A DNA stretch of 20,000 bases from an uncultured virus (IMG/VR IMGVR_UViG_3300044642_001197) (lineage: Duplodnaviria; Heunggongvirae; Uroviricota; Caudoviricetes), in IMG/VR virus record IMGVR_UViG_3300044642_001197; one strand, 5' to 3'. Under the pieces are notes generated by a model. The model was not told the origin of the DNA, did no database searches, and saw only the letters and a list, made by a program, of their open reading frames with translations. Position numbers and translations under genes: made by a program. Positions 1,950 through 19,891 of this stretch are shown here, in pieces; within the stretch, counting starts at the first letter, position 1; every line of letters starts with the position of its first letter.

Positions 1950-2333
1950 CTAAGGCATCATCCTAAGCAAGGCGGACCTAGCGATTTCTTGGGCTTTTGC
2001 TAATTGAACAGCCTTGTCCTCGCGCCAGCCCTTGATGTTTGCGTGGTATAAAGGATTGTCGTCCCGATCAATGGACAGTTCTTGGCCGTAAACGACTTGC
2101 GCTTTCACGTCGGCTCTGCCGTAGAGCTTTGGCTCACCGAATCGTTTGGACATGGCGATGCGGCCGGACTCCCATATCTCGTTTTCTGGAACCCCTTCAA
2201 TACACGTCACGGAGAGCGCCACATGAGGGTGCGGAACAAAAGCCGCCGCGCCGACTCGTTTAGTTGATTCGGTGAACCACTTCGAGAAACACAACATCCT
2301 CGCTATGCTTTCGTCGGGGGAAACATTGGCCAT
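1950..2333 (-). CDS. Small putative toxin, ADP-ribosyltransferase/RES-like fold
   Basis: 127 aa with motif order DESIAR ... AAAF ... LSV ... HANIKGW, an R / S-x / H pattern seen in small ART/RES-like proteins. Last gene of a tightly coupled trio (9-nt gap). Confidence 0.55.
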   Translation of the reverse strand: MANVSPDESIARMLCFSKWFTESTKRVGAAAFVPHPHVALSVTCIEGVPENEIWESGRIAMSKRFGEPKLYGRADVKAQVVYGQELSIDRDDNPLYHANIKGWREDKAVQLAKAQEIARSALLRMMP

Positions 2334-2342
2334 AGCGCGGGG

Positions 2343-2816
2343 CTACCCCAAAACCGATGCGATCAGGCTGAATATTGGCGAGCCAAGGACATCCACCAAA
2401 GGGAAAGAGCCAAAAGCCTTTGCGTTGCCGTTGATTGCCGCGTAGTGGACCTTACCGTGCTCGTCTACAGCGACGGTGACGGTTCGATAATGAGACTGCG
2501 CCCACTCGAATGTGATGTCCCCTGCTACGGTAGCGGACACTTGGGGGGCAGGAAACTGGGGCGGTAGCGCCTCTGCAAATTGCCGAGCATTTCTTGCGGT
2601 TTGGTGGTGCAAAGGAATCGCATGATAACCGTCCCAGTCTGGGTGGGAGCATTCACGAAGTATTTCATCTATGGCTATTCGGCTTTTGTTCCACACATCC
2701 CCCTGACTGTAAGAACTTCTAAGCCCCTCCCGCACGCGTTCGAGTTGCAGGTAAATAGCTTGTCCTTGGGGGCTTGCGGAAGAATCCAAGTAGGACGATG
2801 GATGTGCTGGAATCAT
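2343..2816 (-). CDS. Conserved hypothetical protein (WDGY motif) of the type found next to TIGR04255 genes; putative antitoxin/partner
   Basis: 157 aa, DWDGYHAIPL...A..FAEALP...PAPQVSATVAGDITFEW...VTVAVD..G.VHY. ATGA overlap with the TIGR04255 gene at 2813-2816. Confidence 0.7.
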   Translation of the reverse strand: MIPAHPSSYLDSSASPQGQAIYLQLERVREGLRSSYSQGDVWNKSRIAIDEILRECSHPDWDGYHAIPLHHQTARNARQFAEALPPQFPAPQVSATVAGDITFEWAQSHYRTVTVAVDEHGKVHYAAINGNAKAFGSFPLVDVLGSPIFSLIASVLG

Positions 2817-3556
2817 TGGAAAAGTTCAATGGCTTTGTTTGTTAAGCTAGCGAAAAAAAGACGATTCTTCAAACTTCGCATTTTTTCCCACAGGTGGGGC
2901 ACATCGTTTTCCAACGCAGGCTCCCCAAGCGCAAACACGTCGATGTCCAGCAAGATCGGAAAGCTATTTGAGTTTAGGATCGGCTGTGTTGCCAAAACCC
3001 ATTTGGCTTCGAGTTGCGTGTCTTTGCAGCGGATCACGCTTTGGGCGATAAATGCCCCTCGTTCGATCTCTCCTATTGGAGGAGCCGGTAAAGTGGCGGT
3101 CAAGTAATCTTCCAATTTGACCATGCCTCCGGAATACGGGAGCAAAATTTGATTGATGTAGCGCAGCGCGACTCGCGTTCGCCGAGGCTTGAACAACTGG
3201 TCGTAAACTCCCCATGCGGTATTGGCGGTGTTTGAGGCGTTCCCCCATTTCCGATACGGGCTTAAACAATTGTATGTGAAGCCGTCATTCCGAAACTGGA
3301 GCAATTCTGTGCGATCGTGCGTCAAAAAACGACACCCGACGGCCTGTTGCTTGGTTCGGGTGGTTTTAGGACCATCCTCCGTTGCGCCAACAACGATCTC
3401 GAACTCTTCCATCGGCTCAATAATCGGAAAACGCTCCTTAAAATGCTGGTGGGCGGCAGCTAGCGCGTCGACCGGCACAGGCTTAGGGAACACCACGCGC
3501 ACATCAAAAATAGCCTCCACGATGGGGGAGCTTCGCAACTCGGGAAATTCACTCAT
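2813..3556 (-). CDS. TIGR04255 family protein
   Basis: 247 aa with family hallmarks: PIVEAIFDVR, GFTYNCLSPYRKW, RVALRYINQI, ILLDIDVF and KNRLFFASLT. Confidence 0.85.
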   Translation of the reverse strand: MSEFPELRSSPIVEAIFDVRVVFPKPVPVDALAAAHQHFKERFPIIEPMEEFEIVVGATEDGPKTTRTKQQAVGCRFLTHDRTELLQFRNDGFTYNCLSPYRKWGNASNTANTAWGVYDQLFKPRRTRVALRYINQILLPYSGGMVKLEDYLTATLPAPPIGEIERGAFIAQSVIRCKDTQLEAKWVLATQPILNSNSFPILLDIDVFALGEPALENDVPHLWEKMRSLKNRLFFASLTNKAIELFQ

Positions 3557-3656: not shown

Positions 3657-4562
3657 CTAGGGGCCGAAGCTGGACCGACCGGGTTGAATCCCGGCGTCCC
3701 GGAACGTTTGGTTCACGGAGTTGAGGCGGCTCCTCTGGTATTCCACCTCCCGTTGTGTGGCGTTGAGGCGGCGTTCTAGTGTCTGCGCTCTCTGCTCAGA
3801 GGCCACTACTTGCTGCCGCATGGCGCGAATCTCGTTCACTACTTCTTGGGTGCGCGCGGCTTCTGCGCGGCGGGCTTCTTCTTCCAAGATTCGTTTTTTC
3901 CGCTGGTCAAGGTCAGCTCGTTGTTTTTCTGTCTCCGCGTTAATGCCGTCGAAGTAATCTCCGGCCAACTTAATCGACTCCGCGCTCACTTTCGCACTAC
4001 TCAAGCGGGCCAAGTAAATTTTCTGAAAAGAACTGTCCCTTTTGGCCTCCGGGAAATCGCGGTTGATTTTTTCGATTGCAGCGTTCAGCTCTCTGGCGTC
4101 AGTAGCCGGAACTCCATCAAGTATCTTTATGGCAGCATCAGTATGGACACCTTGTTCCTGCATTCGTAGGACCGCTTTGGCGAAGGCCAGCTCGTCGTCC
4201 TCTGCCAATGTCCTGGTTTCTCCGAGTTGTTCCAGACGAGCCACTCTTTCCAGCCGGAATCGTTTTGATTCGGCGTCAGCCTTCTGTGGGTCGACCTCAC
4301 TTAGGCGGGCGACGTAGAACGATTGGACGCTTGGGTAGCTCCAAGCGTTCGGGCAGACTGTTGCAATTCTGCGGAGCGTTCCGGCGAGCGACGTAGCGGC
4401 TTTGAAGTTTACTTGCCCGAGTAAATAGAGGGCTTTCTGCTCGTCTGTCCATTTTACGTCGGGGGACTGACTGAGGGACCCCGCATAAGGCGTCTGTGCG
4501 TACCCCAAAGGAGTGCCGCATAAACACAAAGCCAGCAGCATGACAGCGAATCGCGTTTTCAT
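3657..4562 (-). CDS. Exported hypothetical protein with Sec signal peptide, internal 45-aa duplication and C-terminal coiled coil
   Basis: 301 aa. N-terminus MKTR-FAVMLLALCLCG-TPLGYA|Q. Residues 44-88 and 144-188 align ungapped with 15/45 identities. The C-terminus is rich in E/R/Q/A. Confidence 0.75.
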   Translation of the reverse strand: MKTRFAVMLLALCLCGTPLGYAQTPYAGSLSQSPDVKWTDEQKALYLLGQVNFKAATSLAGTLRRIATVCPNAWSYPSVQSFYVARLSEVDPQKADAESKRFRLERVARLEQLGETRTLAEDDELAFAKAVLRMQEQGVHTDAAIKILDGVPATDARELNAAIEKINRDFPEAKRDSSFQKIYLARLSSAKVSAESIKLAGDYFDGINAETEKQRADLDQRKKRILEEEARRAEAARTQEVVNEIRAMRQQVVASEQRAQTLERRLNATQREVEYQRSRLNSVNQTFRDAGIQPGRSSFGP

Positions 4563-4602
4563 GTGGTGCTACGTCAACACAGGTGCGCGCTGGATTCAAG
4601 CA

Positions 4603-4631
4603 TTGCTGTTTTTCTGGGGTTTATGTAGGTT
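4603..4631 (+). promoter_or_regulatory. Candidate sigma70-like promoter TTGCTG-N17-TAGGTT containing the shared GGTTTATGTA motif
   Basis: In the 81-bp divergent intergenic region. Hexamers at 4603-4608 and 4626-4631 with a 17-nt spacer; ATG at 4644. Confidence 0.45.
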
Positions 4632-4643
4632 GATGCGATCCGT

Positions 4644-5639
4644 ATGGCGAACAACCCAAACGCAGCCCTAGAGTTGGAGGAAGATGACGAGCTGAATGGG
4701 GGGTGGCCCCGCGCAATAGCCGAGTCGATGGGGGTTCCGCCCGGTGCTAGTAACTCCTCAGCAACGAACATTGCGGCACCTGCAGTGGTGAGTTCTTCGC
4801 CTTCGCCTTCGCCTTCGCCTTCGCCTTCGCCTTCGCCTTCGCCTTCGCCTTCGCCTTCGCCTTCGCCATCGCTTTCCGGCGCAAAATTTATTGAGAGCTA
4901 CGTAAAAACTCCGTTCGACCATCGCGGGTTTCGTCAGGCCGGTGCGGCGACTGAATACGACCCGAGCAAGGACCAGATGGCCCGCAGCGTGGTGGGCGGA
5001 TTGGTTGTTCCGCGGCAAGTGGGGCCCCCTATTCAGATCGACCCGAAATACGGGGGTGGTGTGGGCACGGTTACGAATCCTTTTCCGAGCACGATGGGGG
5101 CCGGGGCTCCCTCTTCTACTTTTGCCACCCCGCCGATTAGGCAACCTTTCGCCGCTGCTCCTGCAACCGCTGCTCCTGCGACCCCGGCGGCCCCACCCAA
5201 GGACAGAGCGGAGGCTTTTTTGGAATACGCACGGCGTCCGATTGGGTCCAACATGGGAACGTCAGGGGGGACACTCAGTCGTCCAGACCAAGAGGTTCAG
5301 CGAGAAGCGGATCGGCTACGCGCCACGGAACGCGCCCAGTTACGTTTCACCCAAGCCGATGCTCGACAAGCAGGGGTGCGAGGGGGCATCTCCCGCAAGG
5401 CGTTCGGGATTGGGGGCGGCAGCCCTCAGGATTATGTGGTCGAAGCCGGGAGAAGTCTTCGCAGGCGCGCCATGGAACAAGACTTGACCAAAAGCAACCG
5501 CGACGACGTGCTGGGGTTGTTGGCTCAGCGCGATCAACTCGACGCGCGCATTCGGGATGAAGACGCTAGGAATATTCGGGAGCGTGAAGAGTTTGTAGGC
5601 AAATCGAAAGGGGCCCGGCCGGGCTCGGTCAGAAAGTAA
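4644..5639 (+). CDS. Hypothetical phage protein, low-complexity (Ser-Pro and Ala-Pro rich); possible internal virion protein
   Basis: 331 aa, stop codon 2 nt before the next ATG. Mostly disordered with a helical, charged C-terminus. Position upstream of the helical 624-aa gene supports the call. Confidence 0.6.
   Translation: MANNPNAALELEEDDELNGGWPRAIAESMGVPPGASNSSATNIAAPAVVSSSPSPSPSPSPSPSPSPSPSPSPSPSLSGAKFIESYVKTPFDHRGFRQAGAATEYDPSKDQMARSVVGGLVVPRQVGPPIQIDPKYGGGVGTVTNPFPSTMGAGAPSSTFATPPIRQPFAAAPATAAPATPAAPPKDRAEAFLEYARRPIGSNMGTSGGTLSRPDQEVQREADRLRATERAQLRFTQADARQAGVRGGISRKAFGIGGGSPQDYVVEAGRSLRRRAMEQDLTKSNRDDVLGLLAQRDQLDARIRDEDARNIREREEFVGKSKGARPGSVRK
4795..4866 (+). repeat. Perfect hexamer microsatellite (CTTCGC)x12 encoding a Ser-Pro tract
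   Basis: Counted directly; followed by one degenerate unit CATCGC. Confidence 0.95.
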
Positions 5640-5641
5640 AT

Positions 5642-7516
5642 ATGTCCACCCTGGAAGATTCATTTAGCGAGCTGGGCGGGAACTTTCAGCAGCCCAGGCG
5701 GGCCTATCGTTTCCCAGATAACAACTCCCACCCGCTTTCTTCTTTCACCCGGAGAGGCGTGGCGCCCAGAGAGCCGGAGGGGGAGATTTCCGATCGTTAC
5801 ATGGACTTGTTGGCCCAGAAAGTGAAGATCGCTGAGGCGCGCACCGCCGGACTAGCGAAGATGCGGGATTTGAGCGCCGCAGAACTGGAATCCGTGCAGA
5901 GGAACCAGACCCTTGAGGATTCGACCAACGCATTCGAGCTGTTGCGTGCGGCGAACCCGAAAGACCCGAGCTTCGAAGCCACGGCTGTAGAGATCCACAA
6001 GAACTACCCCCGGGCGATGCTCGACCAGGAGTTCAAGAACGCGTTCGACTACATGCAAGGCGTATTCACTGGCACAGTGAAGGCCGATCAGCAGTTGAAA
6101 CGGAACGAACAAACCCAACAGAACATGTTGGACCGGCAGGAGATTTCCTCCCAGACGCAGGCGGTGGATAAGCTGGGGCCGCAGTATACGGACCTGCTCC
6201 GGCAGGAGATGGATCAGCTTGGGCCCGACGCGTCGGCGGCGAACAAACGCCAAGTGATCCAAAAGATTCAGCAAAAGGCGGCGATCGACGACACGGACCG
6301 CAAATTGGCGGCGGCAGGGTTGGAGTGGGAGGCTCGCCGCTCTGGCGACAGAGGCCGGGACCAGTTGTTCGACCAGAACACCGGGGCCTACGATTTCAAA
6401 AAAGCGCAGCAGTGGCTGGACGACGAGGCCATCACAAAAAACCAGCTCAACGCGGCGAATGAGATTTTGAAGGAAGCGGCGAAGAACAAAGATGACCCGA
6501 ACTGGCTCGCGCAAAACGCCGAAGCGTTCCAGGCCGCGACAGACATTCGCAATCGCGTGATGAGCAAACGGAGCCGGGAATCCGTGGACCCCGCGTTTGA
6601 GGCCGTGGCGGGGCCGACACGGCTACTGGAACGGTTGAACGCTGAATACGAAGAGTTGAAGAAGGCTGGGAACGAAAAAGGCATGGAGTTGAAGCTGGCG
6701 GAGATCAAGGAGGCGGCGGCCATTCGTCGGCAGGCGGCTGAGGCGCATCCCGGGTTTAACATTAGCACCGTGCCTGTGGGTAATGAGACCCCGACGCAGG
6801 CTCAAAACCGAGCGAAAGACACGCTGCGGGCAATGGCCCTGTGGCCCGTTGACGAACCCATCATTCTCAACGGAAAGCTGGAAACATGGACGAAAGGAAA
6901 GCTAAAAGCACTTTTGGCCGGTCCTCAAACAGCTTCGACCAAAGAGCCGGTGGCCGGGTCGACATCTGCCAATCAGTTGCCAAACAACTCCACGCCTTTG
7001 CCGGGCGCCGCCCCCAAGGGGCAAGCGTCCGAAACGACGGTGCCCCAAACTGAGGCGCAACCGGTGGAGCCACTTGGCGAGGACGCTCAACGTATCCTGG
7101 AACAGACGAGTGTTCCTAGTGATGGTGTGTGGGCGAAAATGGTAGAAAAGGTGGAAGGCGGGGAGAAAGGATCTCCCGCTCAAGAAGCTGTGTGGGGGTG
7201 GATGCGGAGCAACGCCAAATACGCGGAGGCTCAAGAGCGGAACACCAAGCTAGTTGAACTCTACCAAGCAGAAAAAGCCGCAAACGGCGGGTCTTTGCCA
7301 CCTGAAAAGGAGAAAGCCTACGAACAAGCGCAGCTTGAAATTATGGCTGATTTCGACCCGGCAACAAACCACTGGGGCCGCGACGGGGTCCTTGGGTTCC
7401 GCCCGGCATTCAGCCCAAAAGAGCGGGAGCAGTTCGTAAAAATGCGTGAACGCGGGCTGGCGTTGCGCCGCGCTCGGCAAGAGGCGATATCCAACAAACT
7501 TACGGCCCAGCAGTAA
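5642..7516 (+). CDS. Alpha-helical phage protein, probable internal virion (DNA ejection) protein
   Basis: 624 aa, rich in Q/E/K/A with no Cys and a Pro/Thr/Ser linker. Composition and position fit podovirus ejection proteins (inference). Confidence 0.55.
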   Translation: MSTLEDSFSELGGNFQQPRRAYRFPDNNSHPLSSFTRRGVAPREPEGEISDRYMDLLAQKVKIAEARTAGLAKMRDLSAAELESVQRNQTLEDSTNAFELLRAANPKDPSFEATAVEIHKNYPRAMLDQEFKNAFDYMQGVFTGTVKADQQLKRNEQTQQNMLDRQEISSQTQAVDKLGPQYTDLLRQEMDQLGPDASAANKRQVIQKIQQKAAIDDTDRKLAAAGLEWEARRSGDRGRDQLFDQNTGAYDFKKAQQWLDDEAITKNQLNAANEILKEAAKNKDDPNWLAQNAEAFQAATDIRNRVMSKRSRESVDPAFEAVAGPTRLLERLNAEYEELKKAGNEKGMELKLAEIKEAAAIRRQAAEAHPGFNISTVPVGNETPTQAQNRAKDTLRAMALWPVDEPIILNGKLETWTKGKLKALLAGPQTASTKEPVAGSTSANQLPNNSTPLPGAAPKGQASETTVPQTEAQPVEPLGEDAQRILEQTSVPSDGVWAKMVEKVEGGEKGSPAQEAVWGWMRSNAKYAEAQERNTKLVELYQAEKAANGGSLPPEKEKAYEQAQLEIMADFDPATNHWGRDGVLGFRPAFSPKEREQFVKMRERGLALRRARQEAISNKLTAQQ

Positions 7517-7582: not shown

Positions 7583-10012
7583 ATGCCCACCTATTTTCTT
7601 GAGAACAACACCCCCGTCCAAGGGGATTCAGACAACCGGTTGCTCCACAAAATCGCGGGGGCTCTTGAGGACGGGGTCACAACCACGAACATCACGACCA
7701 AATATCGTGAGAGCTTCGAGACCTACAACCCCAACACACCCGGCTCGCCCTGGATCCAAGTCCTCGGAAACGGCGACATCGTGCAGGCCGAAGGCAACGC
7801 GCTGGCGTGCAGCCACCTGACCATTTCCAAAAGCCCGCTTTTTGCGGGGACCGAGACGGTCATTGAAAACCTGGAACGGTTTGCGATGCCGCTCGAGGTG
7901 TCGATCGGCGCGCATATGTCGCAGCGGACGATCGGGCAGGAGTTCGCGGTGGAGATCGTGTCGCTCGACGCGTTGCCCGCACAACCCGACATTGAAATCT
8001 CCAGCATTTCTCAGGCGATCAGCACGCTCACCGTTGTCACCACAACTCCGCACGGACTTGTTCCCGGGAAACGCATCGGAATCACGGGCTGCTCCAACCC
8101 GCTCGCCAATTATCCCGCGCTTGTAATCGCCACGATTCCGACGCCCACCAGTTTCACCGCCACGGCTGGCCCCGGCGGGACGATCCCTTCGCAAACAATC
8201 GCCAACCCGGCGGGCGCAAAAGGCTCGGTGTATTTCCGCCCCGCGCTGGGATACGCGAAGGACGGAACCAGCCTCATTTTCGAGAACACCACGGCGACCA
8301 ACGCCAGCGGTTACATCCGCAGCGATGCGGGAGACTCGCTGCCCAGCGGCACCGCAGCGGGCAACCACTCGGCAGCGATCCTGACCACCGCGAGCGTGCA
8401 GGCAATCAACGCGACCGGCGCCTACGCATTCCAACCGACCAACGAATACAGGCTCACCCTCATGGCCGACCGCGTCCAGTGGGCAGCCACGCCGGTGGAC
8501 TCCACCGCCGGGTGGACCTCGTTTGTCAACCGCACCCAGGTGGTGCCCAACAACTCGAAGCCCTACAAGTTCCGGCTCCGAGCGGCCAACAACAAGGCGT
8601 TGACGGTGCCGAGCGCGCAGATTGTTTCCGCAGTCAAGAGCGGCACCACCACGGCCACGATTACCACCGATGTTCCGCATAATCTGGTAACGGGCGACCC
8701 GGTGGTTCAATACGGCATTCGTGACCAAGCGGCGGCGAGTTTCCCGAATATCATTACGGCCACAGCAGTCACGGTAACTGGACCAAACACCTACACCATC
8801 ACTGTCGGCACGGCTTCCACCGTTACCAGCTACGGCGGTTATGTTGCCAAAGTTCAAGGCGGGAATCTCATGTCGGCGCTCGGCGCGCTAACGATGGCCG
8901 CGCAGTCCGCCACCATTGTTTCCGGCGTGTTGACGCTCGTAGGGAGCGCCGCGTGGTCCGGCATCCTCATCGGTGAGTTCGCCGAGCTTGTCGGCATTCG
9001 TGACGCGGCTACCGGCGCCAGCCTTGGCATTGACGGTGCGTGGCGTGTGCGCGACATCGCAACCACAAACCTTGTTCTTGAATACGTCGGCGGCGACACC
9101 GTTCCCGCCACGCTGAACACGACCAACTGCGGCGGCGGCATCATCAAGCGCACGGACCTCAGAATCTCTTTCCTCCGCGTGTTCGACTTCGAGCGCGAGC
9201 GCGTGGAGATGATGTCGCGGCCTTCTGGCGACATTGCCAACTCTGTGGGGGTCTCGGTCAACAACACGCCCTCCGTTGCGCAATCGGGCTCATGGACATT
9301 CGGTTTGTCGGCAGCGCAGACGCTCGCAAGCGTCACGGCGGCAAACCTCGGGATTCCCGGCACCAACGCCGACGTTTTTTCCTCGGCTCTCACCGCCACC
9401 GCGACAACGGCGGCTTTCACTCCCTCGTTTGGTTGCGCCTACGAGGTCAACATTCCTGTCACAGCGGTAACCGGCACAAACCCAACTCTAGACGTTACCA
9501 TTGAGGAATCCGACGACGGCGGCACCAATTGGTTCCGCGTTTACGATTTGCCCCGCATCACCGCGGCCGGCATCTATCGCAGCCCGAAACTCCCTCTGAC
9601 CGGGAACCGTGTGCGCTACGTGCAGACCGTGGGCGGAACGAATCCGAGTTTCACGCGAGCCATCAACCGCCTCCAATGCTCCGACATGGCTGACCCGGTG
9701 CGGCAGAACGTGGACCGCAGCGTTGTGTTGACCACGCTGAACAGCACCACCCCGAGCCTCAACGCGCAGAACTGCCGCAACGCGCAGATCATAGTGAATA
9801 TCGGGGCCGCCACCACGGCACCGGCGCTCCAGCTTGAGGGCTCGGACGACAACGGCGCGACATGGTATGCACTCGGCTCGCCGCTCACGGCGGTCGCAAG
9901 CTCCACGGTTCGGGCCACCGTCAACGACGTGCAGGCCCAGCTCCTCCGGGCTCGCGTGAGCACAGCGGGAAGCGCCGTCACCGCTGGCTACGTGACCGTG
10001 AAAGGATTCTAA
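7583..10012 (+). CDS. Tail fibre / tail appendage-like beta-rich virion protein
   Basis: 809 aa rich in Thr/Ala/Gly/Val. Two FCCH-like small beta repeats (TLTVVTTTPHGLVPGKRIGITG; TATITTDVPHNLVTGDPVVQYG) and two C-terminal repeats (VTIEESDDGGTNWF; LQLEGSDDNGATWY). Confidence 0.65.
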   Translation: MPTYFLENNTPVQGDSDNRLLHKIAGALEDGVTTTNITTKYRESFETYNPNTPGSPWIQVLGNGDIVQAEGNALACSHLTISKSPLFAGTETVIENLERFAMPLEVSIGAHMSQRTIGQEFAVEIVSLDALPAQPDIEISSISQAISTLTVVTTTPHGLVPGKRIGITGCSNPLANYPALVIATIPTPTSFTATAGPGGTIPSQTIANPAGAKGSVYFRPALGYAKDGTSLIFENTTATNASGYIRSDAGDSLPSGTAAGNHSAAILTTASVQAINATGAYAFQPTNEYRLTLMADRVQWAATPVDSTAGWTSFVNRTQVVPNNSKPYKFRLRAANNKALTVPSAQIVSAVKSGTTTATITTDVPHNLVTGDPVVQYGIRDQAAASFPNIITATAVTVTGPNTYTITVGTASTVTSYGGYVAKVQGGNLMSALGALTMAAQSATIVSGVLTLVGSAAWSGILIGEFAELVGIRDAATGASLGIDGAWRVRDIATTNLVLEYVGGDTVPATLNTTNCGGGIIKRTDLRISFLRVFDFERERVEMMSRPSGDIANSVGVSVNNTPSVAQSGSWTFGLSAAQTLASVTAANLGIPGTNADVFSSALTATATTAAFTPSFGCAYEVNIPVTAVTGTNPTLDVTIEESDDGGTNWFRVYDLPRITAAGIYRSPKLPLTGNRVRYVQTVGGTNPSFTRAINRLQCSDMADPVRQNVDRSVVLTTLNSTTPSLNAQNCRNAQIIVNIGAATTAPALQLEGSDDNGATWYALGSPLTAVASSTVRATVNDVQAQLLRARVSTAGSAVTAGYVTVKGF

Positions 10013-10015
10013 ACC

Positions 10016-10246
10016 ATGCCGCAACTCACGATTACCGACATCTTCGCCACCGACGCGGACGGAATGCGGACTGTGACCGGTTCGTGCAACGGCGTTGTCC
10101 GCAGAATCTCCGTCCCCATTTTGGAGTTGGAGCGGTTGACGTTTGAGGCAGCGCAGGCGCGGTTCATCGAAGAGTTCCGCAAGCTCCTGGCATTGGACCC
10201 CAAGCCTTACCCGCTCCCGTTCACCGAGATCACGGTGGAGTTATGA
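10016..10246 (+). CDS. Small hypothetical protein, possible tail fibre assembly partner
   Basis: 76 aa, starts 3 nt after the fibre gene stop and has an ATGA overlap with the next gene. Confidence 0.65.
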   Translation: MPQLTITDIFATDADGMRTVTGSCNGVVRRISVPILELERLTFEAAQARFIEEFRKLLALDPKPYPLPFTEITVEL

Positions 10247-10692
10247 ACTGGGTGGGCTTCGCATCGAGCGCGATTGTGCGGGAATTGCCGCGCCACGAGA
10301 TCGTTGGCCGAGGGTTGCCCCTGCGGTGGTGGGGCGAGTTCCAGCGGGACCTTACCTGCCGCTCCATCATTGCGGGCCGTTTTCTTGTGCCCGACGGATT
10401 TCTTACTGACGGCGCATCTGTGCCGCGCCCTGTCTGGGCGCTGCTCGACGCGTCCGACCCGGACATCCTGTACCCTGCGTTCGCCCACGACTACCTATAC
10501 GCCGTGCGGGGGGAGCTTCTGGACAGAACGCTTTCAAGGGAGGAGTGCGACGCGGTGCTCAAAGAGCAGATGGAAGCGGTGGGCGCGCCCCGGTGGAAGA
10601 TCGCCGCCGTGTATCGGGCGATCCGGATCGGTGGCGGGCCTGCATGGAACAACGCGGCGCATTCAGCCGCCAAATTGCAAACGACTTTATGA
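10243..10692 (+). CDS. DUF1353 family protein
   Basis: VPDGFLTDGASVPRPVW ... AFAHDYLY ... SREECDAVL.E.M..VG ... VYRAIRIGG matches the DUF1353 signature. Confidence 0.85.
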   Translation: MNWVGFASSAIVRELPRHEIVGRGLPLRWWGEFQRDLTCRSIIAGRFLVPDGFLTDGASVPRPVWALLDASDPDILYPAFAHDYLYAVRGELLDRTLSREECDAVLKEQMEAVGAPRWKIAAVYRAIRIGGGPAWNNAAHSAAKLQTTL

Positions 10693-11189
10693 GCAACCCG
10701 CGTTCTCTCATTGCCGACATCGCAGCGAAACACATCGGGCTGCGTGAGACCACGCCCAACCGTTTCGAGGGGATCGACAAGTTTTGGGCTGCCACCACCT
10801 ACCCCGACGGCGGCAAAAACCGCGAACCGTGGTGTTCTGCGTTCACAAGTTACTGCGTGCAGGAAGCCGACCGGCAAAGCGCCGCAATCCGTTTGCGCGT
10901 CCCGCCGCGTTTCGCCGCCGTGCGCGACTGGCTCCCGTGGGCGACGAAGGCCGGGTGCATCGTGTTCTCCGGCACATCGACGGCATACACTCCAGAGCGC
11001 GGGGACATCGTTGTCTTTCGCCTGCCGCTGTCACACATCGGCGTTGTCTCCGGTATCGCTGGGCGCGGCATCGTGGCAACCATCGAGGGCAACACCAACG
11101 CCGCAGGCTCCCGCGAGGGAGACGGCTGTTACGAGAAATTCCGCAGTCTCTCCATCTGCGGGTCGTTTATTCGAATCCCGACGCTCTAG
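10689..11189 (+). CDS. CHAP-domain peptidoglycan hydrolase (endolysin), 166 aa
   Basis: PWCSAF (catalytic Cys), GDIVVF, SHIGVV (catalytic His) and TIEGNT. Start reassigned to ATG 10689, which forms an ATGA overlap with the DUF1353 stop. Confidence 0.88.
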   Translation: MSNPRSLIADIAAKHIGLRETTPNRFEGIDKFWAATTYPDGGKNREPWCSAFTSYCVQEADRQSAAIRLRVPPRFAAVRDWLPWATKAGCIVFSGTSTAYTPERGDIVVFRLPLSHIGVVSGIAGRGIVATIEGNTNAAGSREGDGCYEKFRSLSICGSFIRIPTL

Positions 11190-11260: not shown

Positions 11261-14200
11261 ATGTTCTCCGAAGTAGAAGAAGACCCGGAATTGCTGGAAA
11301 GCCTTCGTAACCTCAGGAAGTTCGTTGACGGGTTAGAGCCGGCGCCGAAACCAGCACCCTCTCTGGGGGATATACCGGAGTCCGAGCTTTCAGATGACCA
11401 GAAGCGTCTCGCGCATTTTAACGCGTGGTTGAAGGAACACGGGGATGAGGACGAAATCGCGCACGCGCGGGCAAAAGCCCCCGTGGACCGCTCGTATCTG
11501 AGCGCGGTTCGCCAGGGTTTGGATCAGCCGCTCGAAGGGATTGGGACCACGCTGCAACTTTTTGGCGCGGATACCTTGGGCGGGATGCTCAAGGGGATGG
11601 TGGACGCGCCGGTCAATTATGAATCGGCCAGCGACAGGTTCATCCACCCGCAACCCGGCGACACGACCGTGGGCGGGTTTGGTATCGGTTCGCTCCCCCG
11701 GGCTGTGGTGGAGCAGGCCGGACAGTTGGCGGGCTCGGTTTTGTCGCGGGTGGCGGGTGGAGCTGCGGGAGCTGCAATCGGCGGCGCGTTGGGCGCGCCT
11801 GCGGCCGGTGTTGGCGCGGCTCCGGGGGCGATTACCGGAGGCGCCGTCGGCGCGTTTGCCGGTCCGTTTTTGTTTGGCGCCATGCAGATCGCGGGGCCGA
11901 CGGCGCTGGAGCGTGCGAAAAAGAACGGCCGCTCCAAGGCGAATTTGGAGGACATTTCTTGGGGGCTCGCCACGGCGGCGGCGTCCGGAGCTTTGGACTC
12001 GTTGGGAACCAACTTGCCGGGCGGCAAGAGCGTGATTGGTTCGGTGCTCTCGAAGTATTTCCCGAAGGCGGGCGCGTTGCTGGAGTCGATGGCGAAGAAG
12101 CCTGTCCAGAACGCTGCGGTGGATATTTTGGGCGAAGGTCTCACCGAGACCTCGCAGTCAGGCATCGAGCAGTATGGTGCGTCGGCCAACACGCCGGAGG
12201 GCGCCCAAGTCGATTTCAAACAAGCGGTGGGCGAAGGGTTGATGGGGGCGGGCACCGGGCTCGCGCATACCCTGGGGCAATCCGCCTACGAAAAGTGGAA
12301 GAAGAACCAGGACGCGCTGCAGGGGGTTCAAGCGGATCTCGTTCAGAACGGGGCTGTGCAGACGGCTGAGGAATTGGCCAAGATCCAGGAGCAGCGATTG
12401 GCGGAAGCTCTTGCACAAGCAGACGCGTTGCTTGCCGAGGATGAGAAGGCACCCGGCGATCCGCCTTCCGGGGCTACGGATGTGTTCCCAGTGAACGCAC
12501 CCAAGCCTCCTGCACCGCCCACGGGGCCCGCCGCCACACCGGCACCTCCTACGGCTTCTGTAACGCCGCCGGAGACCGCACCGCCCGAGCCTGTGACTCC
12601 TGAGCCTGTGACTCCTGAGCCTGTGACTCCTGAGCCTGTGACTCCTGAGCCTGTGACTCCTGAGCCTGTGACTCCTGAGCCTGTGACTCCTGAGCCTGTG
12701 ACTCCTGAGCCTGTGACTCCCGAGGTTGTGACCCCTGAGCCTGTGGCCCCTGAGCCTGTGACCCCTGAGCCTGCACCCACCGAGGTTGCGCCCACCGAGG
12801 TTGCGCCCACCGATGTCGTGACTCCAGAGGTTGTAACTCCGCAACCTACGCCCCAGAAGCCTTTGAGCAAGAAGGCCCAGCTCGCGGCAGAGCGCGCGGC
12901 CAAAAAAGCGGAAGCTGAAAGGGAGAAAGAACTTATCGCGGCAGGGCGCGCTTACGCAAAAAAAGAGCTTATTGAAGAGGTATTGGACTCCGGGCGAATT
13001 CCCCATGTATCGGTAGTGCAGCGGAGGACTGGGGACAAGAATTTCAACGCCGAATTGAAACGACTGTTCGCGGAGACGTTCCCTGCAGAACAGCCCGGAC
13101 CGAACGAAGTGCTGACTTCCGGCGAAGGGGCCAAGACGGCGAAGCACCTGAAATGGGTGGACCGTGATACCAAGCTACCGGTCGTCAGGAACACGGAGAC
13201 GGGGCAAACGCGGAACCTGTTCACCAACGATCCGAACACAACCGCGATGCAGGTGGATAAGGGTTTGGACGTTTACGTGCCCAAGGGCGTTACCCCGCAT
13301 CGCCGGATCAAGATCAACAGCGAGAACAAGGTGGTTGCTGTGGACCACCCAAGATATGGGTGGGTATCCGGACGCGGGGCGATGGCCGACGCGCGCGCGG
13401 TTGACCCTGAGTTTCTTGAAAACCAAATAGCCGCAACGGGGGGAGAAGATATTGAGCTTAGGTATTTCAGCCCAGAAGCAAACGAGAAGGTGGCGGATTT
13501 GGATCAGCAGGTTCAAAAGTTGCCTTTGTCCGACGAAACGAGAAATGAACTCAAGGTCGCAGAAGAGGCTGCGCTGGCCTACATCAACAAAAAGAGACTT
13601 GATGGTTTTGAGGATGACCTGTCAGTCAAAGTGCGGGCGGCTGCCGGGACCAAATTTAGCATCGACATTCGTGCGGGGCTTATCGCTGAGGGGCGCCTCC
13701 CCAAAGGTTACGGAGGTTATGCGAACAAAGCACTGGCGGACACAATCAGTGAGGCCTACAAAAAACTAAAGAAGCGCCCGGGGCGTAAACTTGAGTCGTT
13801 TGATGCTCTGACCGAAGGGGATAGGGGAGTCGGGGACGTAGACTCGAATGAGCGAATCACGCAAGGAATCCAAGAGTATTCCAATGAAGACCTTGGCGAA
13901 GGCAGCGGCCCATCCGGTGGTGGGGCGGGTAGCTCGTCGGGGGTGCCCGGTAACAAGCCTGTGGCCGATCTTGACGAGACCTTGCGGGAAGCAGCCAGGA
14001 AAGGGGAAGAAGCCGCGAAAAAAGCGGCGCTTGAGAAAGTTCGTTCGTTGGCCAACTTGTCGGTGGAGGAGCAGCTTGCTTTAGATATACCGGAGGATCT
14101 GGTTGTTGACTCTGCGGAAGTTAGTGGGTGGAAGGAGCAGGATTTCTTCAAATGGGGAAGGCAGATCAACGACTACCTACCTGAACGGCTTTTCTCCAAG

Positions 14201-17200
14201 AAAACAGCCGAAGCCATACAGGAGCAAACGCCCGAAGTTGCCAAGGGCATCATCGGCAAGTTGACCGAAATGATGCGCCGGTTGGCTCCGGGGGTGAAGT
14301 TCCGCATCGTGCGCCCCGGGCAAGAAAACCTGAGAAACCGGCAGCAGCGGCTGGAAAGCCTCTCGGTGGACGGGGTGGAAGCCTACTACGACAAGGCCGC
14401 CGATGAGGTGGTGTTTGTGGTGGACAACATCGACGAGGAGCGCGCTGGGAAACTCGTCTACCACGAATTGTCGCACCGCAATCTCGCCCTTATGGAGCAG
14501 ACTTTGGCGGGCCGGTTGGAGCTGGGCCGGATCTTGGAAACCGCGCGCCCGCAGTTGATGGCGCATTTGCCGGAGCTTCTGGCATCAACCGGACACAAGG
14601 ATCTGCGCGCGCTGATGCAGGACTACGGCTACGGGCCGACCTTGGAAGGCCGCGCCGCTGTGTTGAGTGAACTCATGGCCCGGTATGCGGAGCGCCTAGA
14701 CGGGCGAACCAAACCGTCGTGGTGGAGAGAACTCCTGTCGAAGGTCCGGGTGTGGCTTGCGAAACACTTCGGTGTGGCCCTCGATGAGGACGCTCTGGAG
14801 TATTGGTTGGCCGGGAACATGGAGCGGTTTGCCAGCACCCCCAGCGGGGCGCGCAGCGAGGAGCGGGCGTATTCGAAGAGAGCGCCGGTGAACGGTAGAA
14901 CGCGGCAGCAGTCTATGGCGCGGCGGGCAGAGGCGAAGCTTCGTAGATACGGTGGCCCCGCGGAGTTCCAACGCGACCAATTCAAGCCCTCGGAGGCGTT
15001 GTCCCGGGCGTCGCTCGCCATGGACCCGAAGATGCGGGAAATCTTGAGGGAGGCCACGTATCTCCCGGGGAAAAAGGCGGACGATCTGGAGGCGGCCAAT
15101 CGGTTCATCTTTAGCCACAACACGCTGGAGGATGCGATCCTGGCACTCGACGCGGCGAACTCCCAGCCGTTCACGTCCGGGCGTCTCTCGGAGGAACAGG
15201 CGTGGTTGGCGCGGGGCATCATCGCCGGGAAGCTCAATAAAATGGCGCTGGCCATGGACGTGGCGCCCAACTCCATCGGCAAACGGCTGCTCTCCAAGCA
15301 TTACAAGGACTTGGCGGTCGACCAGTTCCGGAAGGTGCAGGAGGAACTCTCTCAAGCGGGCTCGTTCCTGAGCCGGGTGGGGCGCGGTTTGGCCGACCTG
15401 TATTTCCCCGAGGCTGTGATTCGGGATCTCGTTGACCCTGTAAGGAAAACCCAGGAGGAAGTGCTCTCCAAGGATGAGGACGCCCAGGCTGTGGTGGATG
15501 CAATTGACACCTCTTCCGAGCCCGCGGCTGAAAAAGCCGTGGCTGCGGCAAAACCCTTGTTTGACCGGTTGCGCCCGGCTGCCACCACAACCCCCGGCGT
15601 CGATGAGATGCAGCCCGTGTTCGACTTCTTTGAAGGGTTGATGGGCGAGGGGACGATGAAGGCGCACTGGAACCCGACGACCGGGGAATGGACCGAAGGC
15701 AAGCTTGTTGACGCGATCGCCGACCGGTTGGTCAAGCTCACCAAAGCTTCGATGGCTCAGGCCAAGGCGGCGAAAGTGCCACGCCCCGTTATCGAGCTTC
15801 TAGAAAAACAGATTCGCTCGGAAGTGGAGGCGCGGCTCAAACCGTTGTTCCGGAGCAAAGACTTCATCAGCCCGAAAGCGGGTCCGGTGCAGCAGTTGCT
15901 CAAAGAAATCGACAACGTGGATTTGGTGGAGCGGGCGTTCAACAGCTCCAAGGAGGCGTTGTTGGCGCGTGGGGATCTAAGCCCCGAGGAACGCCGGGCG
16001 ATCGAACAGGCGAAGTTTGAGGGGGCGGATCTCAAAGCCGCGCAAGCGGTGATCCGCAAAGCGATCAACCTGCGGGAGATTGTCCAAGGGCATCTGGCCG
16101 ACAGGAACGCGTCGTTGGAGACCCTGACCCAGACGATCCTGGAGAACGCCCAGATCAGCGAAGCCAAGGCGAGCGCCGTGGCCATGGCGCTCAAGACGGC
16201 GTTCGACATCGAGGCGGAGCGCGTGGTGCGGGCGCGGTTGGACGCGCTGCAGAAGGAGCGCAAGCCTTCCCGGACCAAACCCATCCACGCGTCGGAACGT
16301 CTTTTCGCCCTCAGCAACCTTGGGGCGTTCGACACGGCGGAGGTTTACAACGCGATCGCCCAGGCCAATCCGCACTACAAGCTGCCGGTGTATGACGAGC
16401 AGTTCGTCAAGTCGGTGAGGCAGGAGGCGGATCGAATCCAAACGATGCCTGCGGGATCGGACGCCAAAAACGCGGCCACGGTGAACCTTCTGTCGCGGGT
16501 GGCGCACGCACACGCAAGGAACCTGCGCGGGTTCAAGAAGATCATGTATTACATCGGGGATGTCGGGCCCGCCGTGTGGCAGGCCGGGGTTCTCTCGGGT
16601 CCGCCGACTGCGCTCGTCAACGCCATCGGCACGGCGATGATTGTGCAATACAAGGCGTATAGCCAAGCCTACGGCAACTACCGGGCTGCGAGGAAAATGG
16701 GTCGGAACAACGCGGAGGCTTCGCAGTTCTTCAAGGACGTGTCCAAGGGCTGGCTGGACTCGGTGGGGGTGACGAGGTCCGGGCCGTCGACTGCGTGGAT
16801 GGATGCGAAGCAGGCGCTCAAAACCGGGTCCACCCGGTTCAAAAACGCGACGCGCAGCGAGCTGTCTATTCTGGAGAACTACTCGTTGCCTCACAAATGG
16901 GTGGGGCGTCTGATGCTCGCCGCCGACGCCTACAACACGGCGACTGCCGATGAGATCAAGCAGCGGCAGGCGTTGCGGTTCGCCATGATGACGCAGGGGA
17001 AAAACGCGGCGGAGATTATGCAGGCGATGAATGAAGCGTTCCATCCGGAAGCCTCATCCATGGCGCAAATCGAGCAGCAGATCCTTGAGGAAACAAAAGC
17101 TGGGCATCTGGGTTCAGGCAAAGAACTCGAACTCAACACCCAGATCCGGCGCACGGAGTTGCTGGAACAGCGGCGGTTTACTGCAACCCCGGAGATCCGG

Positions 17201-19255: not shown

Positions 19256-19891
19256 ATGCCAAGGCTCCACAAGTACGTCGGCGAAGACAGATGCTATGTA
19301 AAACATAGTTACCGTTCAGGAGGGCGAAATTTCATAGTCACGTATCAAGTTGACGAACACGCAGAATTGGTTTTCTCAGAGAAACGCATCCAAGATGGGG
19401 ATGCAATCCCTGACGGGGTATTCAGGGCGCTCCGCGGGAAGGGTCACCTCTTCACCCAAGGAGGAGGGGCCGAAGGGGAGGAAGTCGAAATTGACGAGGG
19501 CGACGACGATGTGGTTCGGAATTTCTCTTTCAGAGGGCTCTCGCCAGCCGCCGGATATTTTATCCTGCATCAACTACTGCATCATCCGGCGACAAAAGTA
19601 ACAATGGAGGACACAGATGTTTTTGCGAAGACCGGGGTGCTGAACATACAGGACACCGACAAACTGACCGACGACTACATGGGGCAGCTGTTCGAAATTG
19701 CGAGGCTGATCGACGGCACGGATTTTTTTAAGAACCTTATGGCGTCGTTGGAAAGGATGCCGCTGTACGGCGGGAAAGATCGGGCCTTTGAGGCGTTGCA
19801 AGACGCCCTACAGCCTTACGTCGCGTGGTTTACAAAAACCAATGAACTTGTTTACCAAGGGCGGGACAAGAACACACCCCGGGGCTCGTAG
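19256..19891 (+). CDS. Hypothetical protein
   Basis: 211 aa, starts 2 nt after the previous stop. Visibly AT-richer than the structural genes. Two apparent domains joined by an acidic linker (GGGAEGEEVEIDEGDDD). Confidence 0.65.
   Translation: MPRLHKYVGEDRCYVKHSYRSGGRNFIVTYQVDEHAELVFSEKRIQDGDAIPDGVFRALRGKGHLFTQGGGAEGEEVEIDEGDDDVVRNFSFRGLSPAAGYFILHQLLHHPATKVTMEDTDVFAKTGVLNIQDTDKLTDDYMGQLFEIARLIDGTDFFKNLMASLERMPLYGGKDRAFEALQDALQPYVAWFTKTNELVYQGRDKNTPRGS

What the first reader, a model, noticed from the sequence alone, without database searches (positions are those of the whole stretch)
3657..6082. Exported antisense protein resembles part of the neighbouring putative ejection protein: possible decoy-type superinfection exclusion
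Seen: residues 144-181 of the signal-peptide protein (AIKILDGVPATDARELNAAIEKINRDFPEAKRDSSFQK) align with residues 97-133 of the 624-aa protein (AFELLRAANPKDPS-FEATAVEIHKNYPRAMLDQEFKN, starting at nt 5930). This gives 9 identities and a shared I-x-x-[ND]-[YF]-P-x-A-x-x-D-x-x-F pattern. After an 18-aa insertion, AGDYFDGINAETEK matches AFDYMQGVFTGTVK (6/14). Known: podovirus ejection proteins assemble a trans-envelope DNA channel, and Sie proteins block DNA entry at the envelope. Inference: a periplasmic mimic derived from the ejection protein could poison channel assembly by related phages. The hand alignment is weak and between helical proteins, so chance similarity is possible.
Basis: partly seen in the sequence, partly recalled or inferred. 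Interest (0 to 1): 0.8.

Follow-up and report, generated by a model that had tools for sequence, protein, structure and literature searches.

The report
Exported copy of a phage virion-module domain
An uncultured lake phage carries, next to a large structural-module gene, an oppositely oriented gene for an exported protein that is a true but very diverged copy of that large protein's front end, which makes an entry-blocking "mimic" role plausible but unproven.

Summary
On its own it is weak: BLASTP E 0.66, and 7 to 25 of 1000 shuffles score as high. Intermediates prove the homology. Four other members of the exported family each hit only the 624-aa protein among 14 window proteins, at residues 25-141 (E 6.5e-15 to 7e-4). 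Profile against profile gives E 6.2e-14. All five distinct exported members have signal peptides; none of the five large proteins does. Equal contig lengths suggest the exported and large genes co-occur in 4 of 5 lineages. The homology is mosaic. In segment A (624-aa protein residues 39-101) exported copies cluster with the large protein of their own lineage, up to 72% identity. In segment B (102-140) they form their own clade. This points to exchange between the two genes. The window's exported protein also carries a second copy of segment B.

Not shown:
- That the 624-aa protein is in the virion or is ejected; it has no family or fold match.
- That the exported protein blocks infection.
- That the host has a periplasm.

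The window's own pair is the most diverged, about 17% identity. Decoy-type exclusion is the best reading, at roughly one in three.

The parts
3657..4562 (-). P0001, a 301-aa exported protein. Layout: signal peptide, extra copy of segment B, segment A, segment B, about 96-residue helix, conserved C-terminal tail.
   Evidence: ORF and translation. Family members found. AF2 model with pLDDT 70, all-helical.
4497..4562 (-). Signal peptide, residues 1-22 (MKTR, then a 12-residue hydrophobic core, then GYA|Q). It has no canonical lipobox.
   Evidence: Read from the sequence. No 19-residue TM-like window anywhere in the protein. Relatives end in ANA|G, ASA|G, AQA|Q and TQA|Q. No signal-peptide predictor was available.
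4281..4436 (-). Residues 43-94, a second and degenerate copy of segment B. This is the 'insertion' that is specific to the window's protein.
   Evidence: hhalign against the family without P0001 (A8): P 3.2e-5, 52 columns, 35% identity. BLASTP of copy 1 against copy 2: E 1e-4, 15/45 identical. tblastn of P0021 hits 4254-4424 at 1.2e-5.
3996..4274 (-). Residues 97-189, segments A and B, homologous to P0002 residues about 39-140.
3696..3983 (-). Residues 194-289, a single long helix (probable coiled coil).
   Evidence: AF2 helix H194-289 with pLDDT 79-91. Only generic coiled-coil matches.
3660..3773 (-). Residues 264-301, the C-terminal tail RRLNATQ...GRSSFGP. It is identical in P0001, P0006 and P0018, although the rest of these proteins is only about 30-40% identical.
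5642..7516 (+). P0002, a 624-aa helical and partly disordered protein of the structural module. It is a putative internal or ejection protein, but this is not shown.
   Evidence: No family match. No significant fold match.
5705..6061 (+). P0002 residues 22-140, the region homologous to the exported family. Segment A is residues 39-101 (5756-5944) and segment B is residues 102-140 (5945-6061).
   Evidence: Identity matrix, trees. Residues 40-78 are a divergence hotspot against the 90%-identical P0008, holding 16 of the 60 differences.
4563..4643 (.). Divergent intergenic region between P0001 (minus strand) and the 331-aa gene (plus strand).
   Evidence: No sigma-70-like site was found there by the consensus scan.
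1950..3556 (-). Three further minus-strand genes downstream of P0001 (247 aa of the TIGR04255 family, 157 aa, 127 aa). GC is 51-54%, against 56-66% for 10 of the other 12 genes (19256-19891 is 52.7%). Together with P0001 they form an antisense accessory cassette inside the structural module.
7583..10012 (+). 809-aa virion structural protein (fibre- or spike-like). It helps show that the surroundings are a virion module.
   Evidence: 35-39% identity over 96-97% of its length to proteins of Arthrobacter phages (6 records); the protein of phage Sonali is annotated 'virion structural protein'.
11261..18469 (+). 2402-aa giant protein with an internal-virion-protein match. It helps show that the surroundings are a virion module.
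   Evidence: phrog_6651 'internal virion protein', 8.3e-13, residues 1776-2224. 26% identity over residues 1976-2384 to the largest late protein of podovirus MW202801.1.

Best explanation
Shown:
- P0001 is a real, conserved gene.
- Its product has a Sec-type cleavable signal peptide.
- Its helical core duplicates the N-terminal module (segments A and B, about 120 residues) of the adjacent 624-aa protein P0002.
- The core is followed by a long helix of about 96 residues and a strongly conserved C-terminal tail.
- The exported and large genes appear to travel together in related phages.
- Segment A has been exchanged between them within lineages.

Inferred: P0002 is an internal or ejected virion protein whose N-terminal module acts in the cell envelope during DNA delivery. 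P0001 is made from the antisense accessory cassette and exported to the periplasm. There it presents the same module and competes for the interface or envelope partner that the incoming protein needs. This would block DNA entry by the same or related phages, that is, superinfection exclusion by a self-derived mimic. The long helix and tail would oligomerise or anchor the mimic. Exchange of segment A with the virion gene would keep the mimic matched to its target.
For: Homology:
- Four of four other exported members hit only P0002 among 14 window proteins, all on residues 25-141.
- hhalign of family against family gives E 6.2e-14.
- Pairwise E-values are 7e-16, 5e-14, 6e-27 and 4e-8 for the pairs P0006-P0002, P0007-P0008, P0020-P0011 and P0021-P0010.

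Export:
- Five of five distinct exported members have a positively charged start, a hydrophobic core and a small-x-small cleavage site. None of the five large proteins does.
- The large proteins' first 20 or so residues are replaced by the signal peptide.

Linkage: cluster members share identical longest-contig lengths for 4 pairs (70951, 27788, 15502, 5444 bases).

Mosaic exchange:
- In segment A, P0012, P0019 and P0020 are 68-72% identical to large protein P0011 but 17-36% identical to exported members outside their own cluster.
- In segment B the same proteins are 23% identical to P0011, and the exported proteins group together.
- The segment A tree rejects monophyly of the exported proteins (p-AU 0.028) and has a starred split by lineage. 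The segment B tree has the exported proteins as one side of a branch (support 92/88).

Fast-evolving target region: 16 of the 60 differences between P0002 and its 90% relative P0008 lie in residues 39-80.

Context:
- An antisense cassette sits inside a virion module.
- The neighbours are a virion structural protein, a CHAP hydrolase and a 2402-aa internal-virion-protein homologue.

Precedent: P22 SieA blocks injection and is escaped by changes in ejection proteins gp16 and gp20 (abstract of PMC10883804).
Against: - Nothing shows that P0002 is in the virion or is ejected. It has no family match. Its best fold matches are non-significant (E at least 0.011, TM about 0.1).
- The window's own pair is the most diverged: 17-18% identity in both segments and E 0.66. 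It is therefore a poor mimic of its own phage's protein.
- There is no nucleotide-level repeat between the two genes in the window, so no recent exchange here.
- The A/B partition was chosen after seeing the identities, the segments are short (61 and 40 columns), and long branches are present.
- P0008's changes in the hotspot do not lean toward its partner (6 against 5 positions).
- Linkage rests on equal contig lengths. Adjacency and orientation in the other contigs were not seen.
- The host is unknown, so 'periplasm' assumes a diderm host.
- No integrase or repressor lies in the window, and no promoter-like site lies upstream of P0001.
Confidence: 0.35

Rival explanations
1. Same paralogy and export, but a different job. 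The A/B module binds a host envelope component or the ejected protein, and the exported copy serves the phage's own cycle rather than exclusion. Possible roles are a periplasmic sensor of superinfection that delays lysis (like T4 RI, recalled from memory), an envelope-remodelling factor, or an egress factor.
For: - The signal peptide, long coiled-coil-like helix and conserved tail fit a periplasmic structural or adaptor protein.
- The best matches of the family profile to solved sequences, though non-significant, are Braun lipoprotein Lpp (E 0.11-0.13) and the P22 needle gp26 (E 0.65).
- P0006 and P0018 carry an LLAC motif that could be a lipobox.
- The window's P0001 is too diverged from P0002 to be an obvious mimic.
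Against: - The gene is antisense to the late structural operon and sits with low-GC accessory genes rather than with lysis genes.
- It has no transmembrane segment and no spanin-like gene pair (by inspection).
- Segment A tracking the large protein is not predicted by a purely host-directed role.
Confidence: 0.25
2. True paralogues with no functional interplay. P0002 is an assembly protein (scaffold-like) or another non-ejected protein. A fragment of its gene was duplicated, gained a signal peptide and took on an unrelated function. The exchange in segment A is neutral gene conversion between nearby paralogues.
For: - P0002 is long, helical, charged and partly disordered, as scaffolds also are.
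- It has no match to any known internal-virion family.
- Segment B is a repeatable unit. It is duplicated inside P0001, and the shared N-terminal module also matches twice in large protein P0010. This fits a generic helical building block.
- The family is tiny: 8 proteins at E no higher than 0.001 among 1.84 billion representatives.
Against: - The exported gene appears retained in 4 of 5 lineages despite deep divergence, and its 38-residue tail is identical between members that are 41% identical. The exported copy is therefore under selection and linked to the large gene.
- The divergence hotspot of P0002 coincides with the exchanged segment.
Confidence: 0.25
3. The resemblance is chance similarity between helical, charged proteins.
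For: The direct comparison is weak: E 0.66, and 25 of 1000 window-preserving shuffles reach the observed score.
Against: Intermediate sequences and profiles give E-values from 6.5e-15 to 6e-27 in the same register. The secondary-structure order is also the same in both models: long helix, Pro/Asp loop, two short helices, long helix.
Confidence: 0.02

Closest known systems
P22 SieA superinfection exclusion (PMC10883804; abstract and outline read)
   Same: It is a phage-encoded envelope protein proposed to interfere with the ejection-protein conduit. Escape from it maps to ejection proteins gp16 and gp20, and several very diverged sequence types exist.
   Different: [quoted passage not shown] P0001 has only a cleavable-type signal peptide and no TM-like window. 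P0001 is itself homologous to the presumed target. There is no sequence relation to SieA (no Pfam or PHROG hit).
Lipoprotein exclusion proteins: T5 Llp, phi80/N15 Cor, and TP-J34 Ltp, which acts on the tape measure protein (recalled from memory, not checked here)
   Same: They are exported, envelope-located phage proteins that stop entry at or after adsorption. Ltp is thought to act on the DNA-delivery protein of the incoming phage.
   Different: They are not paralogues of the virion protein they act against. P0001 lacks a canonical lipobox, and only relatives P0006 and P0018 have LLAC. There is no family match.
Prophage-encoded FimU look-alikes that give anti-phage defence (PMC12952977; only the start of the abstract seen in search listings)
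   Same: It is a phage-encoded copy of a structural component that interferes with infection by taking its place.
   Different: There the mimic copies a host pilus component and acts on the receptor. Here the copy is of the phage's own structural-module protein.
HXS system effector HxsA (PMC13128918; abstract read)
   Same: It is a periplasmic protein effector that arrests phage DNA entry.
   Different: HxsA is host-encoded, matured by rSAM enzymes, binds peptidoglycan, and is proposed to bind DNA electrostatically. It has no relation to phage virion proteins.
Virus-derived restriction factors of vertebrates: Fv1 (gag-derived), and Fv4 and enJSRV env (recalled from memory)
   Same: The logic is the same: a copy of a virion component, expressed in the cell, blocks entry of related viruses.
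   Different: These belong to a different domain of life and use different mechanisms. They are host-domesticated genes, whereas this copy stays in the phage genome beside its parent gene.
Podophage ejection and internal core proteins: T7 gp14-16, P22 gp7/20/16, cyanophage A4 pre-ejectosome (PMC11784390 and PMC12002296; search listings only)
   Same: P0002 is a long helical protein encoded in a virion module close to a giant internal-virion-protein homologue and a CHAP hydrolase.
   Different: P0002 has no sequence or significant fold similarity to any of them. The gene order is not T7- or P22-like.

Membership tests
Unnamed exported-paralogue family (P0001, P0006, P0007/P0018, P0012/19/20, P0013/21) | N-terminal cleavable-type signal peptide | tested here: met
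   Five of five distinct members, by inspection of the sequences. No 19-residue TM-like window in P0001. No dedicated predictor was available.
Unnamed exported-paralogue family (P0001, P0006, P0007/P0018, P0012/19/20, P0013/21) | Core homologous to segments A and B of the large protein | tested here: met
Unnamed exported-paralogue family (P0001, P0006, P0007/P0018, P0012/19/20, P0013/21) | Long C-terminal helix ending in a conserved tail | tested here: met
   AF2 helix H194-289. The tail is identical in P0001, P0006 and P0018, and a second tail type occurs in P0012 and P0021.
Podovirus internal / ejection proteins (for P0002) | Present in the virion and released into the envelope at infection | not testable with these tools
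   The phage is an uncultured lake-metagenome phage. No proteomic or structural data exist.
Podovirus internal / ejection proteins (for P0002) | Encoded in the virion module beside other internal-virion genes | tested here: met
   Its neighbours are an 809-aa virion structural protein, a CHAP hydrolase, and a 2402-aa protein matching phrog_6651 'internal virion protein'.
Podovirus internal / ejection proteins (for P0002) | Sequence or profile match to a described internal-virion family | tested here: not met
   Zero families in Pfam, PHROGs and NCBIfam. No tblastn match in 50,697 phage records. PDB sequence searches give E of 0.21 or higher.
Podovirus internal / ejection proteins (for P0002) | Fold similarity to solved or predicted ejection proteins | tested here: inconclusive
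   The best BFVD match has E 0.011 and TM about 0.1. The list is made up of tape-measure, internal and lysozyme-domain proteins, none significant. The model has pLDDT 68.7.
P22 SieA-type exclusion proteins | Integral inner-membrane protein | tested here: not met
   P0001 has no TM-like 19-residue window beyond the short signal-peptide core. SieA's location is taken from the abstract of PMC10883804.
P22 SieA-type exclusion proteins | Blocks DNA injection of related phages | not testable with these tools
   This needs the host and the phage.
Lipoprotein exclusion proteins (Llp, Cor, Ltp; definition recalled from memory) | Lipobox cysteine at the signal-peptide cleavage site | tested here: not met
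   In P0001 the residue before each Cys is Leu (LALC, LCLC), which is not canonical. P0006 and P0018 do have LLAC (by inspection).
Spanins (definition recalled from memory) | Inner-membrane anchor or outer-membrane lipoprotein, encoded as a pair within the lysis cassette | tested here: not met
   P0001 has no C-terminal or N-terminal membrane anchor. The gene is antisense and lies among accessory genes, with no partner ORF seen.
Braun lipoprotein Lpp-like coiled coil | Sequence match to Lpp; C-terminal Lys for peptidoglycan linkage (recalled from memory) | tested here: inconclusive
   The family profile matches Lpp at E 0.11-0.13 over the coiled-coil part only. P0001 ends in ...SSFGP, with no terminal Lys.

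The most novel reading that the evidence does not exclude
A phage keeps, beside the gene for a protein it ejects into the host envelope, an exported copy of that protein's N-terminal module. It repeatedly refreshes part of the copy (segment A) from the virion gene. The copy works in the periplasm as a dominant-negative subunit or competitor that stops related phages from building their DNA-delivery channel. This would be superinfection exclusion by a self-derived mimic, the bacterial-virus counterpart of Fv1- or Fv4-type restriction, with a visible arms-race hotspot in the target.
Probability: 0.3. Interest if true: 0.85.

Novelty: new variant of a known kind. Interest (0 to 1): 0.6.

Why it matters
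Known exclusion proteins that act on DNA delivery, such as SieA, Ltp, Imm and Sp, are not relatives of the virion proteins they block. A periplasmic copy of the target itself would be a new and simple route to exclusion specificity. It would give a sequence-readable link between an exclusion gene and its target, because the matching segment names the interface. It would also give a case where gene conversion between a virion gene and its mimic can be followed in metagenomes.

Even if the function differs, the pair marks the first 140 or so residues of an unannotated large phage protein as a module that works outside the cytoplasm. That is a useful handle on an unknown class of podophage-like lake viruses.

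Tried and rejected
- **Complex prediction.** P0002 residues 39-200 with P0001 residues 78-230 gave the verdict 'no answer' (score 0.01; controls not run). This is no evidence either way.
- **Expression.** No RNA holder was listed among 16 runs.
- **Laying contigs of runs X2-X5 on the window**. Only short low-depth pieces were laid (many identical to the window), together with parts of longer, diverged contigs. They show the phage or close strains in several lake and freshwater metagenomes. They do not bridge the P0001 and P0002 genes. Gaps in cover mean nothing. One run had 18 differences in 409 bases over 5671-6079 but 1 in 310 over 4038-4347. That is too thin to use.
- **Genomic context of relatives.** There were five scans of viral contigs, two of metagenome contigs and two of genome contigs. 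No locus was returned. One search counted 2 relatives but no distinct locus, probably the window's own record. No whole genome is held for the window.
- **Fold searches of the P0001 model.** Foldseek against PDB gave nothing at E 0.001 or lower. VIA-align wide gave only generic single-helix or coiled-coil matches at Z 7.6 or lower, on residues 189-293.
- **Protein atlas.** No usable hit for P0001. For P0002 there were only unnamed viral clusters at 0.86-0.87 and a crAss cargo-protein cluster at rank 25 with score 0.83, all below the level to be trusted.
- **Defence and family libraries for P0001.** The only hits were weak coiled-coil-type ones: PADLOC PDC-S06 at E 0.0056 and 13 bits, and NCBIfam FlhF and SMC at E 0.012-0.07, far below their cut-offs.
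- **Direction of change in the P0002/P0008 hotspot toward the partner.** Six against five positions, so no signal.
- **Nucleotide repeats between the two genes in the window.** None.
- **Earlier findings of this scan.** Nothing on this genome or these sequences.
- **Literature.** Four searches and a term search inside the exclusion review PMC11436027 ('paralog' 0, 'ejection' 0). None of the titles or abstract starts listed (up to 12 per search) describes an exclusion protein derived from the phage's own ejection protein. Only listed titles, abstract starts and those passages were seen, so this is not proof of absence.

Full report
**What is in the window**

The window is part of a phage virion module.

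On the plus strand lie these genes:
- 4644-5639: 331 aa, with an (SP)n tract.
- 5642-7516: P0002, 624 aa.
- 7583-10012: 809 aa.
- 10016-10246.
- 10243-10692: DUF1353.
- About 10545-11189: CHAP peptidase.
- 11261-18469: 2402 aa.

Three results mark this as a virion module:
- The 2402-aa protein matches phrog_6651 'internal virion protein' (8.3e-13). It also matches the largest late protein of podovirus MW202801.1.
- The 809-aa protein is 35-39% identical over 96-97% of its length to proteins of five Arthrobacter phages; the protein of phage Sonali is annotated 'virion structural protein'.
- The CHAP and DUF1353 proteins hit endolysin and tail PHROGs.

Four genes lie on the other strand inside this module: P0001 (3657-4562), then a TIGR04255-family protein (9.8e-34), then two small proteins. 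Those last three have 51-54% GC, against 56-66% for 10 of the other 12 genes (the gene at 19256-19891 has 52.7%).

No whole genome is held for the window. The DNA occurs in lake and freshwater metagenomes. The host is unknown.

**The observation**

BLASTP finds the same alignment, but at E 0.66. The Smith-Waterman score of 68 is reached by 7 of 1000 global shuffles and 25 of 1000 window-preserving shuffles. P0001 alone against a profile of the large family gives E 0.017 in the same register.

**Homology through relatives**

Both families are very rare.
- A word-indexed search of 5.8 billion proteins found 2 relatives of P0001 beside its own record, and 2 hits for P0002: a 90%-identical full-length relative and a partial chimera.
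- An exhaustive profile search of 1.84 billion representatives found 8 proteins at E 0.001 or lower.
- A second profile search found no further exported members: 5 clusters in all.

The proteins fall into two sets:
- Exported proteins of 240-301 aa: P0001, P0006, P0007/P0018, P0012/19/20, P0013/21.
- Large proteins of 519-839 aa: P0002, P0008, P0010, P0011, P0015.

The chain of evidence for homology:
- P0001 without its C-terminal tail matches P0006 at 1e-11 and P0012 at 3e-12.
- The other four exported proteins match P0002 at 6.5e-15, 5e-13, 1.1e-4 and 7e-4, always on residues 25-141. They match no other of the 14 window proteins below E 0.9.
- hhalign of the exported family against the large family gives probability 98.2 and E 6.2e-14 over 114 columns.
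- The two AF2 models share the same order of elements over the aligned part: long helix, Pro/Asp loop, two short helices, long helix.

The homology is therefore real.

**Anatomy of the exported protein**

All five distinct exported members begin with a basic start (MKTR or MNTR), a hydrophobic core of about 12-15 residues, and a small-x-small site (GYA|Q, ANA|G, ASA|G, AQA|Q, TQA|Q). The five large proteins begin with an acidic, non-hydrophobic N-terminus instead.

P0001 has no other hydrophobic segment. It has no canonical lipobox, whereas P0006 and P0018 have LLAC. These are my readings of the sequence, because no signal-peptide predictor was at hand.

After the signal peptide the exported proteins start at about the position of residue 20 of the large proteins.

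P0001 has about 50 extra residues there. These are a second, degenerate copy of segment B:
- hhalign against the family without P0001 gives P 3.2e-5 over 52 columns at 35% identity.
- Copy 1 against copy 2 gives E 1e-4.

The shared N-terminal module also matches twice in large protein P0010.

The C-terminal third is a single helix of about 96 residues with pLDDT 79-91. It ends in a 38-residue tail that is identical in P0001, P0006 and P0018, although these proteins are otherwise 28-41% identical. A second, related tail type occurs in P0012 and P0021.

**Linkage and mosaic history**

Cluster look-ups give identical longest-contig lengths for four pairs:

| Exported | Large | Contig length (bases) |
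|---|---|---|
| P0001 | P0002 | 70,951 |
| P0018 | P0008 | 27,788 |
| P0020 | P0011 | 15,502 |
| P0021 | P0010 | 5,444 |

P0015 (66,260 bases) has no detected partner. This is indirect evidence that the pair travels together. I could not fetch those contigs.

Within-pair BLASTP E-values are 0.66, 5e-14 (measured with P0007, which differs from P0018 only in its first residue), 6e-27 and 4e-8.

The similarity is mosaic:
- In segment A (P0002 residues 39-101), exported P0012, P0019 and P0020 are 68-72% identical to large P0011. That is more than P0011 is to its orthologue P0010 (65%), and far more than these proteins are to exported members outside their own cluster (17-36%).
- In segment B (residues 102-140), the same proteins are 23% identical to P0011, and the exported proteins resemble each other most (28-35%).

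Trees agree:
- Segment A gives a starred split by lineage and rejects a single exported clade (p-AU 0.028).
- Segment B puts all exported proteins on one side of a branch (support 92/88, in 90% of bootstrap trees).

The simplest history is one old duplication followed by later exchange of segment A between the two genes within lineages.

Caveats:
- I chose the partition after seeing the identities.
- The segments have 61 and 40 columns.
- P0001, P0021 and P0015 are long branches.

Between P0002 and its 90%-identical relative P0008, 16 of 60 differences fall in residues 39-80 (post hoc binomial p about 1.5e-6). A second hotspot lies at residues 403-428. The changes do not lean toward the partner's sequence. 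In the window itself the two genes share no nucleotide repeat and only 17-18% identity in either segment.

**What the large protein is**

This is the weak link. P0002 has no Pfam, PHROG, NCBIfam, PADLOC or PDB-sequence match and no relative in 50,697 phage records.

Its model is helical with disordered stretches at residues 1-49 and 428-474 (pLDDT 68.7). The nearest predicted viral structures are tape-measure, 'internal' and lysozyme-domain proteins, but at E 0.011 or higher and TM about 0.1. That is not evidence.

Its place in the virion module is the only support for 'internal or ejected protein'.

**Mechanism**

The exported protein presents the same N-terminal module in the periplasm. There it competes with the incoming large protein for its assembly interface or its envelope partner, so that related phages cannot complete DNA delivery. 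The long helix and tail would oligomerise or anchor it.

Shown:
- Paralogy.
- Export signal.
- Conservation.
- Probable linkage.
- Mosaic exchange.

Inferred:
- Virion location of P0002.
- Periplasmic action.
- Exclusion.

I put this at about 0.35. The rivals are:
- A periplasmic role in the phage's own cycle, about 0.25.
- Paralogues without functional interplay, about 0.25.
- Chance similarity, which is excluded.

**Comparison with known systems**

P22 SieA is the closest in function. [quoted passage not shown] P0001 is not a membrane protein and is unrelated in sequence.

HxsA is a host periplasmic effector that arrests DNA entry (abstract of PMC13128918). Prophage FimU look-alikes mimic a host component (listing only).

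In four literature searches, and in a term search of one exclusion review, I saw no exclusion protein described as a copy of the phage's own delivery protein. I saw only listings and passages, so this is not proof of absence.

**Verdict**

- The homology claim is upgraded from 'possible' to 'established'.
- The functional claim is plausible and testable but unproven.
- The window's own instance is the least mimic-like of the four pairs.
- Novelty: a new variant of a known kind. It is an envelope-acting phage accessory protein, here a paralogue of a structural-module protein.
- Interest: 0.6.

Noticed in passing
window 4281-4436 (minus strand): The stretch of about 50 extra residues near the N-terminus of P0001 is a second, degenerate copy of the roughly 45-residue segment B unit (I..xxP.A..x..FQ..Y). 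The shared N-terminal module also matches twice in large protein P0010, so it behaves as a repeatable helical unit.
   Followed up: yes
window 4795-4870: A perfect hexanucleotide tract (CCTTCG)n encodes about 16 Ser-Pro repeats in the 331-aa protein just upstream of P0002. Assemblies of other runs seem to break there, so it is a likely length-variable linker.
   Followed up: no
window 1950-3556 (minus strand): This is a low-GC (51-54%) three-gene island downstream of P0001. It holds a TIGR04255-family protein (9.8e-34), a 157-aa protein with a weak hit to PADLOC candidate PDC-M32A (7.2e-5), and a 127-aa protein. It may be a defence or accessory cassette. No paper in the library mentions TIGR04255.
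   Followed up: partly
window 7583-10012: The 809-aa protein is 35-39% identical over nearly its full length to proteins of Arthrobacter siphophages (annotated 'virion structural protein' in phage Sonali). It is also 55% identical over 120 residues to a Caulobacter phage protein. A virion protein is thus shared between phages of very different hosts.
   Followed up: partly
window 3660-3773 (minus strand): The 38-residue C-terminal tail is identical in P0001, P0006 and P0018, while the rest of these proteins is only 28-41% identical. This reflects either very strong constraint (a binding motif) or recent recombination. The DNA of the relatives could not be fetched to decide.
   Followed up: partly
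window 10243-11189: The DUF1353 gene and the listed CHAP ORF overlap by 148 bases. The CHAP family alignments start at residues 56-60 of the ORF, so its real start is probably near 10700.
   Followed up: no
protein P0009: This 345-aa metagenome protein joins a PF05524-type N-terminus to a stretch 57% identical to the middle of P0002 (about residues 350-440). It is either an assembly chimera or a case of domain shuffling.
   Followed up: no
window 6848-6925 (P0002 residues 403-428): This is a second divergence hotspot between P0002 and its 90% relative P0008, holding 18 of the 60 differences. It lies in the small beta-hairpin region after the conserved AHPGFN and LWP motifs.
   Followed up: no
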